A stretch of 64,000 nt of DNA. It comes from the human T2T-CHM13v2.0 reference genome, Homo sapiens. The position numbers were made by a program, and so were the translations under genes. Each line of letters begins with the position of its first letter. Position 1 is the stretch's first letter. Below, piece after piece: positions 1,279 through 58,430 of the stretch. The stretch lies in NCBI RefSeq assembly GCF_009914755.1, contig NC_060932.1; one strand, 5' to 3'. The notes beneath the pieces were generated by a model, which ran no database searches, was not told where the DNA came from, and worked only from the letters and a program-made list of their open reading frames with translations.

Positions 1279-1608
<330 letters not shown>

Positions 1609-1827
1609 AGAAGATGTAAACTTTTAAATCCAAGGTAAAAAAAATGATGTGATGGGTCCCTATTTTACAACATGTAATCAAATGCTTAGATTGGTTCCCT
1701 GCCTGAAAGTCTCTTTGCATATATCAAGTTACGTTTTATCATTTGTGCCCAACAATTTCTTCCAAAAAAAATCCCTTGTTCTTTAATGAGGAAAAAGAAC
1801 ATCTTTGCTGTTTAGAAAAGGGCGTAA

Positions 1828-2236
<409 letters not shown>

Positions 2237-2466
2237 CTAAAACATTCTTAGACCAAAATTTTCAGAGGAACTTTGCAGATTGCAAACAAACCCATCAAAA
2301 TAACCCAGTTGGCCTTAGTTGCCAATGACCAAACAAAATGTGACGTTTACAGAGTCCTGAAATTCTCATGCTGTAGAAGCCACCAACGAGCTCTGAAATT
2401 TGACAGGAAACAAATGCTAGAGTCATAAAGCAAGTGATATAATCATTCAAGACAAATGAGGGAGTC

Positions 2467-2697
2467 TTTTTTTCTTTTTTTTAATGAGAGGGGGTCTCAC
2501 TGTGTCACCCAGACTGGAATACAGTGGCACAATCACGGCTCACTGCAGCCCCAACCTCCCAGGCTCAAGTGAGCCTCCCACCTCAGCCTCCCCAAGTAGC
2601 TGGGACTATAGGCATACACCACCACACTCAGCTAATTTTCAATTTTTTTTTTTTTTTTTTTTGTAGAGACTGGGTTTTTCCATAATGCCCAGGCTGG
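2467..2697 (-). mobile_element. AluJ, partial
   Basis: caggctcaagtgagcctcccacc AluJ right-arm signature; left arm truncated. Confidence 0.9.
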
Positions 2698-2825: not shown

Positions 2826-5189
2826 TGTCTGTTTCATCTCCCTAGCTTACTCAAAGTGATAAAACAGGCTCCAGCCAGAAACATCACTGATGGAAACTGT
2901 GACTTTTATTTTAACTAATGCGTCTATTAAAATGAGGCAGGGTTCGGTCGTTGAAGTCAGACGTGGCATTCAAATCACACCCATGGACACATAATTGTCT
3001 GTAGAAGAGAGTACAAGTGAATCGAATCTTACAGCAGCAGAGAAGTTCTCCATGTCGTCGCCATGATTTCATCAGCTTCTCTTTAGTCTCTCCTGCACGT
3101 TTCCTTCAGTCTGAGCAATTCATGCTGAACCTCCTGATCTTCCAACCAAGATTTGGGCTGCAAATTCCTCCCCAGCAGAACTGGAGAACTGGAGAAGCTG
3201 AGCTCAGTGCCATCAGCCCACCACTGGGACTCTGTGACAAATGGAGTGCAGAGGTGACAAATGGAGTGCAGAGGCCGGAGGAAGCTGAAGACCCCTGGCA
3301 GAGCCCTGGGGGTGCCATCACACAGCCTCCCGGGGCACAGCGACAGGAATCCAGAGAGGCGGCCCAGTTCAAGTCTCACAGAAAACCCAGAGTCTGATTA
3401 ATATTAGAACATGGCTCTCGGCAAGGCCCTCATCATCCACAGCACCACAGCCACTGAAATATTCAGGAAGGCTAACAAGCAGGTGCCCTGGGGAGTTAAT
3501 AGCAGAGACGGAAAGCCTCTCGCCAGCTCCATAGCCAACACAGAGCCAGGTGGGATTGTCAGTAATTAAAAGCCTTACTCAGTAGAAGCCTTTATAAAAT
3601 GAATTGTCGAATTCCATCAGCATTAAAGAATAGGCATTGAACTTTCAAAATTACATAAGAATTTTTTAAAGCCAGAATTAAAAACGCTTGACTACATTTT
3701 GCTTTTTGTTTGTTTAGTCATTCACACATATCTATCTGATGCCTACCGTGTGCCTAAGCCCTGCATATACGGAAAACTAATAGGCCAGGAGAAGGTTCCC
3801 TTGGTTGCCACAGCCAGGCCTGGATCACTCTCGATAACTAGCCCACAATAACTGCTGGGACTTCGAGGAAAAACTCATTTTGAATAGTGCCGCCTTCCCG
3901 AAGGCCTGCTGGAAGCACGAGTGGTGAGAGGATGCCCAGAAGTTGCTCCTGGAGGAATGAGGGTGGCCTGTCCTGGGTCTCTGTCCCTGGGTCTCAGGAC
4001 ATAGCACTATCGCCTAAGGATGAAGGTGATCCGAGATTTGGCAACAACGATTGTGAGCACCTCCATGGCAGGAAGCAGGATATGGGCTTCCTACACTCGT
4101 CCCAAGGCAGTGAAGAAAGGCATGGGCCAGGATGCAGCTCTCAGTACATTTTCTGTCACAGGGATGTGAATCCAGCCCAGCAAAGTTCAACCCAGTTGTC
4201 AACTGAAAAGATGGGGAAGACCTTGGATTCCCAAGACTCCGTGAGGGCAGAGCTCATGGCTTAACCTCTCTTTCCCCCCACCGGCTGAGGCAAAAGGCAA
4301 GCGCATGAGATCATTATTGATACATGCAGGAAAGTATGTATTTCATCAGGTAACATTTATTTTAACTAATAAGCACTAAGAACTTCAGCATTTATTAAGT
4401 AGAACACAGCAAACTTCAGCATGTCCTGATCTGTGTGAACTATGGATGGAGAAGGTAAGAAAGTGGGGTTCCGTTTTTCCCTTTCAAGTCCTTATGCCCT
4501 CATGAAGACTGAATTTTCACCCCACCAAAATTAAGGAAGCAAAGTGGCTTCCCGGAGTTCAAAGGGACAGCTCAGCCCCATCTTCGCGTCATGCAGAATG
4601 CATGAGCTGATTCTACTCTCAGCCTCTAAAACAGTAGGGAGATGATAACCTGCAACACAGCTAATTTAGAGGTCACCCTGATCCGGTGGGTAAGAACGCA
4701 TTTCTTCTTACTCAAAATTTAGTCCCATTATTTAGCCCTCGTACACAACTCAGACAGCATTCCCGACGAATACCTACATCTCGTGCTCCTTTTCACAAGG
4801 TGCTGACATACCTAATAGTGCTTTTTTCCCCTCCTGGGCTCTGGGGGTGCCATGAAGGCTGGAGATAGACAGCAAATGAAGGAATAACAATTTTTTTAAA
4901 TCTAGAACTTCCACTGCTTTTATTTCTGCATGAACGTGGAAAAGCCTCCTACTAGGAGAAATAACGTCGTGTAGATTCTGTAATACTTGCCAATAGGTAG
5001 GCCTCCCATCTGTAGACAGCTGTGGCTAAGCCACAGCTTATGGTAATTCGACAAAATTACCATTACTCACAAAAGTAAACAATTTTCTTGAAACAACAAG
5101 GCAGACAGGGTTGTAAGCAGAGGGCTTCATGGTAAATTTCTCTAGTAACTAAGCTAAGTTGGTCTTTTTGGAAACAAGAGTTGCATCTT

Positions 5190-12288: not shown

Positions 12289-13695
<1,407 letters not shown>

Positions 13696-13783
13696 TAATT
13701 TAGAAACTCTTGTTGTCTATTAACAGTATATCAGATCTCAAATACAAGTGTTCTTTTTCCAATTTCTCCATGCTTTTCCCTAA

Positions 13784-16884: not shown

Positions 16885-17468
16885 TGTGATAGTTAATTTG
16901 GGCTGTCAACTCGACTGTATACCCAGACAGCTGGTAAGGCATCCTTTCTGGGTGTGTCTGGGAAGGTGTTTCCAAAAAATAAAAAGAAATGGCATTTGAA
17001 TCAGTGGACTGAGTAAGAAAGATCCACCCTCACACAGTGTAGACAAGCACCAATCGATCAGCTGAAGTCCCCAATGGAAAAAAAGGCAGAGAAAAGGTGA
17101 ATTGTCTCTCTCTCCTGTAGCTGGGACACCTGTCTTCTCCAGCCCTTGGACATGAAAACTTCAAGTTCTGCAGCCTTTGGACTCCAGGACATGCAGCAGC
17201 AGTGCCTCCGTGTTCTCAGGCCTTCAGCCTCTACCTGAGTTACACCACCAGCTTCCTTGGTTCTGGGCCTTCAGACTTGGACTGAGCCATCCTGCTGGCT
17301 TCCCTGATTCCCGAGCTTGCAAATCTATGGTGGAAATTATAATCCTCCAAAACCACATGAGCCAGTTTTTCCTAATAAATCCCTTCTCATATATCTATAC
17401 CTATCTGTTATAGATATGTGTACGTATATACTTTTTTATTGTTTCTATCTCTCTGGAGGACTAATACA
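16885..17468 (+). mobile_element. MLT2 (B/C-like) 5' LTR of an ERVL
   Basis: tgtgatagttaat...gtcaactcgact...ctgggtgtgtctg...gactaataca; aataaa near 17374; joined directly to ERVL internal sequence. Confidence 0.9.
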
Positions 17469-17591
17469 GATGTTGGTCCCATGAGAGGTTCTGGAGAAGG
17501 AGAATTTTAAGGATGAGTTCCCAGCATTGGTTTTAGGTGCTCTGGCATTATCTCTCTCATCAGATTGCACTTTAAAATGCTAAGGACTGCA

Positions 17592-17897
<306 letters not shown>

Positions 17898-18018
17898 CTA
17901 AGGACTCTATTACTACTAGTACAGGGAGCACTGATAATCCGTAATGTAACTCTTCATACAGACACACAAAACATCTGCATTAGATTCTCCTAATCAACCC
18001 CTTATAGGAGGCAGAAAG

Positions 18019-19255
18019 TTTTTTCTTTTTTCCTTCCAACCTCATTTTAGGTTCAGGGGGCACATGTGCAGGCCTGCTGCACAGACCATCTCCTCACCCA
18101 GGTAATGAGCACAGAACCCCATAGGCAGCTTTCCAATCCTCACCCTCCTTCTGCCTCCACCCACAAGCAGGCCCCGGTGTCTACCACTCCCCTTCTTGTG
18201 TCCATGTGTACTCAATGTTCAGCTCCCACCTGGAAGTGAGAACATGTGGTTATTTGGTTCCCTACTTCTCTGTTCATTGGCCCAGGACAATGGCCTCCAG
18301 ATCATCCAGGCTGCCACAAAGGTCATAACCTTGCATCTCCCTGTGGCTGTGTAGTATTTCATGGTGTTGATGCACCACACTTTCCCCAACCAGTCCACTG
18401 CTGATGGGCATCCACATAAACCCCCTCTCTCTGCTGCTGTGAATAGTGCTGTGATGAACATGTGTGTCCATGTGTCTTTATGGAGGGTTGACTAATACTC
18501 CCCTGGGCACATATCCAGCAATGGGACCACTGGGTCGAATAGTAATTCTGTTTCAGATTACCTGAGAGATCTCCAAACTGCTTTTCACAGTGGCTGAACC
18601 AATCCACATTCCCACTAGTGGCGTACAAGCTCTCTACCTTCCCTGCAACCTCACCAGCACCTGCTTCTTAACTTTTTAGTGCTAGCCATTCTGACCAGTG
18701 TGAGATGGCATCCCACCATGTTTTGGTTTGCACTTCTCCAATGAATAGTGATGTGGAGCATTTTTCCATATGTGTGTTGGCCACATGCGTGCCTATCCTC
18801 AAGAAGTGTCCATCCACGCCCCTTACCCCTGTTTCAATGGAGTTGTCTGTTCCTTTCCGGCTGATTTAAATTCCTTATAGATTCTGGATACTAGATCTCT
18901 GTCGAATGCATAGTTTGCAAATATTTTCTCCCATCCTATAGGTTGTTCACTCTGCTGACAGTTTCTTCTGCTGTGCAGAAGCTGCTCAGTTCAACCAAGT
19001 CCCACTTGTCAATGTCTGCCTTTGTTGCAGTTGCCCCTGGAGTCTTCATCCTGAAATCCCTGCTGGCACCAATGTCCAGAATGGTACTTCCCAAGATTTC
19101 CACAGCTTTATGTGTTACATTTAAGTCTTTATCTTGAGTTGATCTCCATACATGGTAAACGGAAGAGGTCCAGTCCCAATGTCCCCACACAAGGCTAACC
19201 AGTTATCTCAGCACCATACACCAAAACAGGGGGTCCTCTCCCCACTGCCTGTCAT
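18019..19255 (-). mobile_element. L1PA (old primate, PA13-16-like) 3' fragment, A-to-G hypermutated
   Basis: T-rich tail, then antisense 3'UTR and ORF2 end; ORFs on - give degenerate ORF2 (MFITALFT..., [21 protein letters not shown]). Confidence 0.9.
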
Positions 19256-19384
19256 TTTTGGCCCATAGGCAAGAAACGTAGTGACTCTATATAATACTTT
19301 CAAACCTGTGGAAAACTAAAGAATATGATGGTTGGCTGTTCCTAATGTCACTGACAGAATGGAGAAAGAAGAGGGTTAGGTCAA

Positions 19385-19822
19385 TGATGTAGCTTGGATA
19401 CTTGCCAACGTGCCCATCTCATGTTGAAACGTAATCCCCAATCTTGGAGGTCGGGCCTGGTGGGAGAGGTGTTTGGACCGTGGGGCAGACCCCTCATGAA
19501 TGGCTTGGACCATCCCCTTGGTGATGAGTGAGCTCTCGCTCTGAGTTCACACAAGTTCTGGTTGTTTAAAAGTGTGTGGCCCCTCCCCTCATTCTCCCTC
19601 TCCCTTTCTTTCTTGTTCCAGCTTTCACCGTGTAACGTGCCTATTCCCTCTTCACCTTTAGCCATAATTATTGTTTCCTGAAGCCTCACCAGAAGCTGAC
19701 CAGATGCCAGCACCATGCTTCCTGTACAGCCTGCAGAACCGTGAGCCAATTAAACCTCTTTTCTTTATAAATTACCCAGCCTCAGCTATTTCTTTATAGC
19801 AATCCAAGAATGGCCTAACGCA
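19385..19822 (+). mobile_element. MSTB-like MaLR solo LTR
   Basis: atctcatgttgaaacgtaatcccc...gagccaattaaacctcttttctttataaattacccag. Confidence 0.9.
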
Positions 19823-57885: not shown

Positions 57886-58430
57886 TATATACCACTTGAT
57901 CCATCAATCCCATTACTGGGTACATACCCAAAGGATTATAAATCATGCTGCTATAAAGACACATGCACACGTATGTTTATTGTGGCACTATTCACAATAT
58001 CAAAGACTTGGAACCAAGCCAAATGTCCAACAATGATAGACTGGATTAAGAAAATGTGGCACATATACACCATGGAATACTATGCAACCATAAAAAAGGA
58101 TGAGTTCATGTCCTTTGTAGGGACATGGATGAAGCTGGAAACCATTCTCAGCAAACTATCACAAGGACAAAGAAACCAAACACCGCATGTTCTCACTCAT
58201 AGGTGGGAATTGAACAATGAGAACACATGGACACAGGAAGGGGAACATCACACACCGGGGCCTGTTGTGGGGTGGGGGGAGGGGGGAGGGATAGCATTAG
58301 GAGATACACCTAATGTTAAAGGACGAGTTACTGGGTGCAGCACACCAACACGGCACATGTATACATATGTAACAAACCTGCACGTTGTGCACATGTACCC
58401 TAAAACTTAAAGCATAATAATAAAAAAAAA
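57886..58430 (+). mobile_element. L1PA (PA3-5-like) 5'-truncated 3' fragment
   Basis: ORF2 C-terminus DWIKKMWHIYTMEYY; G-rich 3'UTR tract; A tail; short TSD aaagata. Confidence 0.95.

What the first reader, a model, noticed from the sequence alone, without database searches (positions are those of the whole stretch)
18019..19255. L1 copy with strand-specific A-to-G hypermutation: a candidate ADAR-hyperedited RNA fixed in the germline genome
Seen: compared with the old L1PA consensus as I recall it, this antisense L1 has dense T-to-C changes on + (A-to-G on the L1 RNA strand), often in runs. Examples: tcctttgggtatatacccagtaatgggattgctggg becomes tcccctgggcacatatccagcaatgggaccactggg (~18499-18534); gaactaatttacatt becomes gaaccaatccacatt (~18596-18610); tagtttaattagg becomes cagttcaaccaag (~18987-18999); gcttttgg becomes gcccctgg (~19033-19040). 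A hand count over ~600 nt gave roughly 60 T-to-C against about 10 A-to-G; this needs a formal alignment. Several TTG sites now read CCA (ctaccact, ggaccact, cccaccatg), as expected if T-to-C first created CpGs that later decayed, so the event is ancient. The flanking ERVL and the other L1s here (12295-13695, 57886-58430) show no obvious such bias. Established: reverse transcriptase reads inosine as G, and APOBEC3 editing gives G-to-A instead. Inference: this L1 RNA was in dsRNA, was hyperedited by ADAR, and was still inserted. Editing would wreck ORF2, so either it happened after translation or the RNA was mobilised in trans. That would be an RNA-editing-to-DNA route of mutation and a fossil record of ADAR anti-L1 activity.
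Basis: partly seen in the sequence, partly recalled or inferred. Interest (0 to 1): 0.9.

Follow-up and report, generated by a model that had tools for sequence, protein, structure and literature searches.

The report
A-to-G hypermutated L1 insertion
A 1.25-kb LINE-1 fragment on human chromosome 8 carries about 115 extra A-to-G changes on its RNA-sense strand that stop at the edges of the insertion, as expected if its RNA was heavily edited by ADAR before it was copied into the genome.

Summary
I aligned the element to 29 other L1 3' ends from the same genome. It has 138 A>G changes on the L1 sense strand (28.3% of 487 ancestral A). The complementary type, T>C, has 22 (9.2%). The other 11 substitution types lie within the control range. 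About 115 changes are in excess, spread evenly from window 18043 to 19253.

No other genomic copy shares them; the best other match is 72-74% identical. The signature stops at the insertion. The abutting host repeat shows +strand T>C 6/59. Repeats further out show 9/124 and 8/134, and two other L1s in the window are symmetric. Twenty uninterrupted paralogues of the host repeat show the empty site and a 10-12 bp target-site duplication. So the changes arose before or during insertion.

The 5' neighbour pattern is ADAR-like (U~A > G, C). New CpGs have decayed, so the event is old.

Best reading (0.77): the L1 RNA was hyperedited by ADAR, then reverse-transcribed and inserted. I found no printed description (seven full-text searches). 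Untested: primate orthologues, genome-wide frequency.

The parts
18019..19264 (-). 5'-truncated L1 insertion (3' part of ORF2, 3' UTR and poly(A) remnant) carrying the A>G hypermutation on its sense strand
   Evidence: Aligns to 29 L1 3' ends. A control ORF matches human L1 ORF2p residues 945-1103 and another matches 1146-1272 of 1275. A>G changes lie from 18043 to 19253, with median spacing 5 nt. L1 homology reaches about 19262-19264.
18222..19264 (-). C-terminal part of ORF2 (from roughly residue 920 to the end), now with many stops in all three frames
   Evidence: The start residue is estimated from the offset to control L005.
18219..18221 (-). Position of the ORF2 stop codon (TGA here, TAA in control L010)
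   Evidence: Column mapping. The control ORF ends at ORF2p residue about 1272-1275.
18038..18218 (-). L1 3' UTR, with a 33-nt deletion relative to the controls
   Evidence: Alignment block.
18019..18037 (-). Poly(A) remnant (T-run on +); sense reads 19 nt with 5 G
18010..18020 (+). Left copy of the target-site duplication (GGCAGAAAG plus TT merging into the T-run)
   Evidence: in 20 uninterrupted paralogues this stretch occurs once (commonest form GGCAAGGAACTT). In the window it occurs on both sides of the L1. Overlapping hits appear.
19268..19279 (+). Right copy of the target-site duplication (GGCAAGAAACGT); ATA at 19265-19267 may extend it
   Evidence: Searches give a 5-10 bp overlap of left- and right-flank matches at three paralogous places.
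17897..18018 (+). Host repeat, left of the insertion (low-copy family); no T>C excess
   Evidence: all 39 first-look candidates scored and matched, one of them the window's own place; left flank 4 T>C of 29 T and 5 A>G of 43 A.
19265..19384 (+). Host repeat, right of the insertion; no T>C excess
   Evidence: all 33 first-look candidates scored and matched, one of them the window's own place; right flank 2 T>C of 30 T and 5 A>G of 40 A.

Best explanation
An L1 sense-strand RNA was base-paired over at least its last 1.25 kb, most likely with an antisense L1-containing transcript or an inverted L1 arm. An ADAR enzyme deaminated about a quarter of its adenosines to inosine.

The L1 reverse transcriptase read inosine as G during target-primed reverse transcription. 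The 5'-truncated copy was inserted into an older repeat in a germline cell, with a 10-12 bp target-site duplication. The roughly 115 A>G changes became DNA in that one step. The copy has since aged like any other L1 of its family.

Shown: the strand-specific excess, its confinement to the insertion, its absence from other copies, the target-site duplication and empty-site paralogues, the 5' neighbour bias, and the decay of the new CpGs.

Inferred: that the changes were made on RNA, that ADAR made them, that a dsRNA partner existed, and that the RNA was used after translation or mobilised in trans.
For: 1. Size and specificity. A>G is 138/487 and T>C is 22/239. The other 11 substitution types lie within the range of 29 controls. 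z=11.4, and about 115 changes are in excess.
2. Strand. The changed strand is the L1 RNA-sense strand.
3. Evenness. The rate per 100-nt bin is 16-39%, with heterogeneity chi2 P=0.40. Changes reach within 2 nt of the end of the aligned L1 and within about 25 nt of the T-run.
4. Confinement. +strand T>C in the flanks:
   - host repeat abutting both ends: 6/59, with A>G 10/83 (Fisher vs the L1 P=0.0017);
   - repeat at 19385-19822: 9/124;
   - repeat at 16885-17399: 8/134.
   Together this is 23 of 317. The two other L1 3' ends in the window are symmetric: 7.2/7.2% and 12.2/10.2%.
5. A real retrotransposition event. There is a poly(A) remnant, a 5' truncation, a duplicated GGCA(A)GAAA(C/G)(G)T stretch, and 20 of 20 fetched paralogues uninterrupted at the site.
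6. Private to this copy. Controls carry G at only 2-21 of about 135 of the changed columns. The best other genomic match is 72-73% for the whole element, with 40 of 15421 candidates scored. It is 74% for its first 296 nt, with 40 of 2986 scored.
7. ADAR-like 5' neighbour.
   - Changed fraction: 0.45 after U, 0.38 after A, 0.19 after G, 0.11 after C (chi2 P=1.3e-7).
   - Controls are flat at 4.1-6.4%.
   - 5' G vs 5' A/U: odds ratio 0.36, P=0.0011.
   - Depletion of G upstream is the published ADAR motif (Porath 2014, PMC4365171, passages seen).
8. Old event. Of 114 ancestral CA sites, 10 now read TG and 2 read CG. CpG count is 8 against 68.6 expected.
9. Precedent. ADAR-type A-to-G hyperediting has been reported for Rous-associated virus, avian leukosis virus, HTLV-2 and STLV-3 (PMC12925331, passage seen).
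Against: - G is not significantly enriched 3' of the changed A (24/67 vs 110/378, P=0.31).
- The lowest 5' neighbour is C, not G. I attribute this to decay of the new CpGs. That correction is an inference.
- No dsRNA partner or source element can be identified.
- This is one locus. Orthologues were not examined, so a single-step origin is inferred from confinement and CpG decay, not seen directly.
- In HeLa cells no editing was found in more than 2.5 kb of ectopic L1 RNA, and ADAR1 restriction of L1 was editing-independent (PMC5224506, passages seen). Reviews repeat this view (PMC6757416; PMC12925331).
- Hyperedited RNAs are said to be retained in the nucleus (PMC9148063, passage seen). This would make use of such an RNA as a template rare.
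Confidence: 0.77

Rival explanations
1. Polymerase hypermutation at insertion. The L1 reverse transcriptase put dC opposite rA, or the second-strand polymerase put dG opposite dT, many times. A skewed dNTP pool could cause this, with no RNA editing involved.
For: It would also give changes confined to the insertion, on one strand, made in one step. Unbalanced dNTP pools are listed among host factors that raise viral mutation rates (PMC5075021, Table 2 seen). The 3' neighbour test for ADAR is not significant.
Against: The 5' neighbour bias (U~A high, G low) matches ADAR. From established knowledge (recalled), a next-nucleotide effect with excess dCTP should favour a 5' G in the template, which is the opposite of what is seen. 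All other substitution types are at the background level, so fidelity did not collapse in general. I know of no report of A>G hypermutation by L1 RT (recalled; not searched for specifically).
Confidence: 0.1
2. Mutation in place after insertion. Candidates are a strand-asymmetric process (transcription- or replication-associated), GC-biased gene conversion, or adenine deamination in an R-loop acting on this stretch of chromosome 8p.
For: T>C on the L1 sense strand (9.2%) is at the upper end of the controls (2.4-9.8%). The window is fairly GC-rich at 0.44-0.51 around the element. Some AT-to-GC drive in the region is therefore plausible.
Against: - The excess is on one strand only (ratio 3.08).
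- It is missing from 223 compared columns of host repeat abutting both ends.
- It is missing from repeats 130 nt and 620 nt away and from two other L1s in the window.
- It fills the insertion evenly up to both ends.
- The new CpGs have decayed, so it is not ongoing.
Confidence: 0.04
3. A G-rich L1 lineage. The copy descends from a subfamily or master copy that already had these Gs, or it was converted by such a copy.
For: The subfamily could not be named because no repeat library was available. Only 40 of 15421 candidates were scored.
Against: The scored candidates are the best of the first look, and the top one is only 72-73% identical; the first 296 nt gave at most 74%. No control shares more than 21 of about 129-138 changed columns, and the ones sharing most are simply the most diverged. 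For every substitution type other than A>G the element is as close to this family as its own members are (9.7% vs mean 10.0%).
Confidence: 0.03
4. ADAR editing of the DNA strand of the L1 RNA:cDNA hybrid during target-primed reverse transcription.
For: [quoted passage not shown] 2017, as described in PMC12925331, passage seen).
Against: The cDNA is the antisense strand. Its A>G changes would appear as T>C on the L1 sense strand, which is at background (22/239). The observed strand is the opposite one.
Confidence: 0.02

Closest known systems
ADAR-type A-to-G hyperediting reported for retroviruses (Rous-associated virus, avian leukosis virus, HTLV-2, STLV-3; reviewed in PMC12925331, passage seen)
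   Same: Dense A>G on the RNA-sense strand of a reverse-transcribing element. The review cites regions in which nearly 50% of A were changed. By the established retroviral life cycle (my inference, not stated in the passage), such changes pass through reverse transcription.
   Different: Those are exogenous retroviruses in infected cells, and the edited regions were short. Here it is a non-LTR element inserted by target-primed reverse transcription, fixed in the germline, and edited evenly at about 24% over 1.25 kb.
APOBEC3 G-to-A hypermutated retroelements fixed in vertebrate genomes (Knisbacher and Levanon 2016, PMC4866542, passages seen; Zaranek et al. 2010, PMC2873906, passages seen)
   Same: A host deaminase leaves a strand-specific, clustered, single-type footprint confined to one retroelement copy. 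The copy still integrates and becomes part of the genome.
   Different: The enzyme, substrate and direction differ: C>U on minus-strand cDNA gives G>A. Here G>A is at the low end of the controls (16/206), and the change is A>G on RNA. In the passages I saw, those screens used A-to-G only as the opposite-direction filter.
Hyper-edited RNA clusters in human transcriptomes (Porath et al. 2014, PMC4365171, passages seen)
   Same: Dense A-to-G clusters on one strand, G depleted one base upstream, and a long dsRNA substrate.
   Different: Those are RNA-DNA differences that leave the genome unchanged and lie mostly in Alu. Here the changes are in the DNA itself.
ADAR1 restriction of L1 retrotransposition (Orecchini et al. 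2016, PMC5224506, passages seen)
   Same: It places ADAR1 on the L1 ribonucleoprotein.
   Different: That work saw no editing of L1 RNA, and inhibition was independent of the catalytic domain. This locus suggests that editing of an L1 RNA did happen at least once in the germline.
Biased (A>G / U>C) hypermutation of RNA viruses such as measles virus (PMC5075021, passage seen)
   Same: The same enzyme family and the same all-of-one-type hypermutation.
   Different: Those are RNA genomes with no DNA record.

Membership tests
ADAR hyperediting footprint | One substitution type only (A>G) on the RNA-sense strand | tested here: met
   A>G 138/487 and T>C 22/239. The other 11 types lie within the control range.
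ADAR hyperediting footprint | High density over a long stretch (tens of percent of A) | tested here: met
   28.3% raw and about 23.6% in excess. The rate is 16-39% in every 100-nt bin, with median spacing 5 nt.
ADAR hyperediting footprint | G depleted one base 5' of the edited A | tested here: met
   5' G 13/68 vs 5' A/U 109/273, odds ratio 0.36, P=0.0011. Controls are flat. The motif is as stated in PMC4365171.
ADAR hyperediting footprint | G enriched one base 3' of the edited A | tested here: inconclusive
   3' G is the highest (24/67 = 0.36) but not significant (P=0.31).
ADAR hyperediting footprint | Substrate was double-stranded RNA (a complementary partner exists) | not testable with these tools
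   The source locus and partner are unknown. No inverted L1 3' end lies near the element in the window: the others are at 12966-13696 (same orientation) and 57890-58430.
ADAR hyperediting footprint | Dependence on an ADAR enzyme | not testable with these tools
   This needs an experiment.
L1 insertion by target-primed reverse transcription | L1 sequence ending in poly(A), 5' truncated | tested here: met
   ORF2p residues about 920-1275 plus the 3' UTR and a T-run on +. There is no L1 beyond about 19264.
L1 insertion by target-primed reverse transcription | Target-site duplication and an identifiable empty site | tested here: met
   A 10-12 bp stretch is duplicated at 18010-18020 and 19268-19279. 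It is single in 20 of 20 uninterrupted paralogues. A test using the two flanks alone was not significant: 26% of shuffles scored as well.
APOBEC3-edited retroelement | Excess G>A on the sense strand | tested here: not met
   G>A is 16/206 = 7.8%, below every one of the 29 controls (8.5-20.2%).
GC-biased gene conversion / regional AT-to-GC drive | A>G and T>C equally raised, extending into the flanks | tested here: not met
   The rate ratio is 3.08. Flanks are at 6-10% T>C and 6-12% A>G.
Distinct L1 subfamily | Other copies share the diagnostic bases | tested here: not met
   The best other copy is 72-74% identical. Controls share 2-21 of about 135 changed columns. Only 40 candidates were scored per search.

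The most novel reading that the evidence does not exclude
This copy is not a one-off. It would be the visible tip of a class: ADAR hyperedits L1 (and perhaps Alu, SVA and mRNA) templates in primate germ cells often enough that edited RNAs are repeatedly written into DNA.

If so, editing-dependent ADAR activity against L1 exists in vivo despite the editing-independent picture from cell culture. RNA editing would then be a direct, saltatory source of germline mutation. The even editing up to both ends, and perhaps into the poly(A) remnant (5 G in 19 nt), would mean that sense-antisense L1 duplexes form on RNAs that still reach the retrotransposition machinery.
Probability: 0.3. Interest if true: 0.85.

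Novelty: new variant of a known kind. Interest (0 to 1): 0.72.

Why it matters
Deaminase footprints in retroelements have been catalogued in genomes for APOBEC3 (G>A). For ADAR and L1, the literature I could read says the opposite. No editing of L1 RNA was seen in culture, restriction was editing-independent, and the role of ADAR editing in retrotransposon evolution was described as "not yet determined" (PMC5224506; PMC6757416; PMC4982230).

This locus is a clean natural example. It is bounded by a target-site duplication and by empty-site paralogues, and it shows that a heavily A-to-I edited L1 RNA can complete retrotransposition in the germline. It shows that RNA editing can become heritable DNA sequence in one step, about 115 substitutions at once. 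It gives a template for a genome-wide search for such fossils. It also offers a way to ask when and how often L1 RNA was double-stranded in germ cells.

Tried and rejected
- Pfam on the element's longest ORF2-frame stretch and on a control ORF gave no family. Identity as L1 ORF2 came from PDB sequence matches instead.
- A target-site duplication sought by local alignment of the two flanks alone was not significant: score 14, and 26% of 2000 shuffles scored as well. It was established only through the paralogues.
- The immediate flanks do not belong to the repeat family at 19385-19822.
- The 3' neighbour preference is not significant.
I fetched 16 short regions instead.
- Carmi et al. 2011 and Orecchini et al. 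2017 RNA Biol are not held. What they say about A-to-G clusters was therefore not seen.
- Seven full-text searches listed no paper describing an ADAR-hyperedited L1 or retrocopy fixed in a genome. The library lacks most subscription journals, so this is absence in that library only.

Full report
**What is there.** Window 18019-19264 holds the last 1.25 kb of an L1, antisense on the + strand. A search of the window's own assembly (chr8 of a 3.1-Gb, 24-contig genome) found 15421 first-look candidates. Forty were scored, and apart from the query's own place the highest identity was 73%, with the top-scoring ones at 72%. Open stretches of two of these copies match solved human LINE-1 ORF2 protein at residues 945-1103 and 1146-1272 of 1275. 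The element therefore covers ORF2 from roughly residue 920 to its stop codon (window 18219-18221). The 3' UTR follows, with a 33-nt deletion, and then a short poly(A) remnant. Pfam had no model for these stretches. The L1 subfamily could not be named because no repeat library was available.

**The observation.** I aligned the element in sense orientation with 29 other L1 3' ends (L002-L030; MAFFT, 1658 columns).
- Its base composition is A 0.30, C 0.19, G 0.29, T 0.22. The controls have A 0.36-0.43 and G 0.15-0.22, with C and T unchanged.
- I polarised each sequence against the column majority of the others (at least 60% support, at least 10 sequences). The element then shows 138 A>G among 487 ancestral A (28.3%) and 22 T>C among 239 T (9.2%).
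- The other ten types are also ordinary: A>C 9, A>T 14, C>A 2, C>G 5, C>T 29, G>A 16, G>C 3, G>T 3, T>A 3, T>G 6.
- The 29 controls have 12-54 A>G (mean 24.3) and an A>G/T>C rate ratio of 0.87 +/- 0.37 (range 0.34-2.25). The element's ratio is 3.08, and its A>G rate lies 11.4 sd above the controls.
- Without A>G its divergence is 9.7%; the control mean is 10.0%.
- A regression of A>G rate on the other divergence in the controls predicts 23 background changes. About 115 are in excess, which is 23.6% of all A.
- The contrast holds at majority thresholds of 0.8 and 0.9.

**Distribution and privacy.**
- The A>G changes run from window 18043 to 19253 with a median spacing of 5 nt and a largest gap of 55 nt.
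- Every 100-nt bin has 16-39% of its A changed, with no significant heterogeneity (chi2 P=0.40).
- No control shares the Gs. Each carries G at 2-21 of the roughly 135 changed columns, and 103 of the 138 columns have G in at most two controls.
- A second genome search with the first 296 nt found nothing above 74% identity besides the element itself (40 of 2986 candidates scored). This is one private copy, not a subfamily.

**Confinement to the insertion.** The 120 nt on either side belong to one low-copy repeat family (33 and 39 candidates, all scored).
- At three paralogous places the matches to the left and right flank abut and overlap by 5-10 bp.
- I fetched 20 paralogous stretches. All 20 are continuous across the site and carry a stretch, commonest form GGCAAGGAACTT, once. 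The window has GGCAGAAAG(TT) directly before the T-run (18010-18020) and GGCAAGAAACGT directly after the L1 5' end (19268-19279).
- This is a target-site duplication of 10-12 bp, possibly longer if ATA at 19265-19267 belongs to it, together with an empty-site reference. The two flanks compared on their own had not given a significant match.
- Polarised against these paralogues, the abutting flanks (223 columns) show +strand T>C 6/59 and A>G 10/83. Fisher against the L1 gives P=0.0017.
- Further out, the repeat at 19385-19822 gives T>C 9/124 and A>G 5/83 (29 relatives).
- The repeat at 16885-17399 gives T>C 8/134 and A>G 10/111 (16 relatives).
- The two other L1 3' ends in the window are symmetric: 12966-13696 at 7.2% and 7.2%, and 57890-58430 at 12.2% and 10.2%.
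- The excess therefore begins and ends with the inserted DNA. It arose before or during insertion, not in place.

**Which process.** The changed strand is that of the L1 RNA.
- The fraction of A changed depends on the ancestral 5' neighbour: U 0.45, A 0.38, G 0.19, C 0.11 (chi2 P=1.3e-7). In the pooled controls it is flat at 4.1-6.4%.
- 5' G against 5' A/U gives an odds ratio of 0.36, P=0.0011. G depletion one base upstream is the published ADAR motif (PMC4365171, passages).
- The very low value after C is expected from later CpG decay. Of 114 ancestral CA sites, 10 now read TG and only 2 read CG, against a mean of 2.7 TG in the controls.
- Allowing for an equal number of reversions to CA, about 15% of CA sites would have been changed, similar to GA. 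This correction is my inference.
- The 3' neighbour effect has G highest at 0.36, but it is not significant (P=0.31).
- G>A, the APOBEC3 direction, is 16/206, below every one of the 29 controls (8.5-20.2%).
- ADAR editing of the cDNA strand of an RNA:DNA hybrid (mentioned in PMC12925331) would give T>C on the sense strand, which is not seen.
- Polymerase hypermutation at insertion remains possible. It does not predict the 5' neighbour pattern and would more likely raise other error types too.

**Timing.** The element has 8 CpG against 68.6 expected from its composition, and the CpGs created by A>G after C have nearly all decayed. Its non-A>G divergence equals that of its family. The A>G burst is therefore old, which is compatible with the moment of insertion. 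Orthologues would show this directly, but none were available.

**Mechanism proposed.** An L1 sense RNA was duplexed over at least its 3' 1.25 kb and deaminated at about a quarter of its A by an ADAR. It was then used as a template for target-primed reverse transcription, which reads inosine as G. The copy was inserted 5'-truncated into an older repeat in the germline. Whether the RNA was edited after its own translation or was mobilised in trans cannot be told, nor whether the partner was a separate antisense transcript or an inverted arm. The poly(A) remnant has 5 G in 19 nt. This might mean the duplex reached into the tail, or it might be ordinary decay.

**Literature.**
- ADAR-type A-to-G hypermutation is known for RNA viruses (PMC5075021) and was reported for several retroviruses (PMC12925331).
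- APOBEC3-hypermutated retroelements fixed in genomes are well described (PMC4866542; PMC2873906).
- For L1, the accessible papers report no editing of L1 RNA and editing-independent restriction by ADAR1 (PMC5224506; PMC6757416). A 2016 review calls the role of ADAR editing in Alu evolution "not yet determined" (PMC4982230).
- Seven full-text searches listed no description of an ADAR-hyperedited L1 or retrocopy fixed in a genome.
- Carmi et al. 2011 and Orecchini et al. 2017 were not held, and subscription journals are mostly missing. Prior description cannot be excluded.

**Verdict.** I rate it a new variant of a known kind: a deaminase footprint in a fixed retroelement, but from ADAR, on RNA, in L1. 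Interest is 0.72. It is a single locus, and its wider weight depends on the orthologue check and a genome-wide scan.

Noticed in passing
Its family was not identified here. The uninterrupted paralogues serve as empty-site references.
   Followed up: partly
window 17590-17896: An Alu-like element (about 300 bp, matched by some 20 Alu copies lying in the flanks of the control loci) lies 120 nt from the L1 3' end. It interrupts the sequence to the left of the host repeat.
   Followed up: no
window 19385-19822: A roughly 430-bp repeat of a large family (7816 first-look candidates, about 80% identical; 11.4% from its family majority) adjoins the host repeat. Its substitution spectrum is ordinary. 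The family was not named.
   Followed up: partly
L030 (G000:C11:110556026-110560174), locus positions 1501-2649 (+) and 3135-4021 (-): Two L1 3' ends lie in inverted orientation about 490 bp apart. An arrangement like this could fold into a hairpin of about 0.9 kb if co-transcribed. This copy itself shows no A>G excess (25 A>G).
   Followed up: no
window 18019-18037: The poly(A) remnant reads, in sense, 19 nt with 5 G. This is about the same G fraction as the edited body. It could mean the duplex reached the tail, or it could be ordinary decay.
   Followed up: no
window about 18075-18110 (3' UTR): The element lacks 33 nt that are present in the 3' UTR of 14 of the 15 control copies shown (L019 has a 13-column gap within that stretch).
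   Followed up: no
window 12966-13696: This other L1 3' end has high C>T (36/129) and G>A (21/113) relative to the same reference set. This is probably CpG decay plus a difference in subfamily. It has no A>G bias.
   Followed up: no
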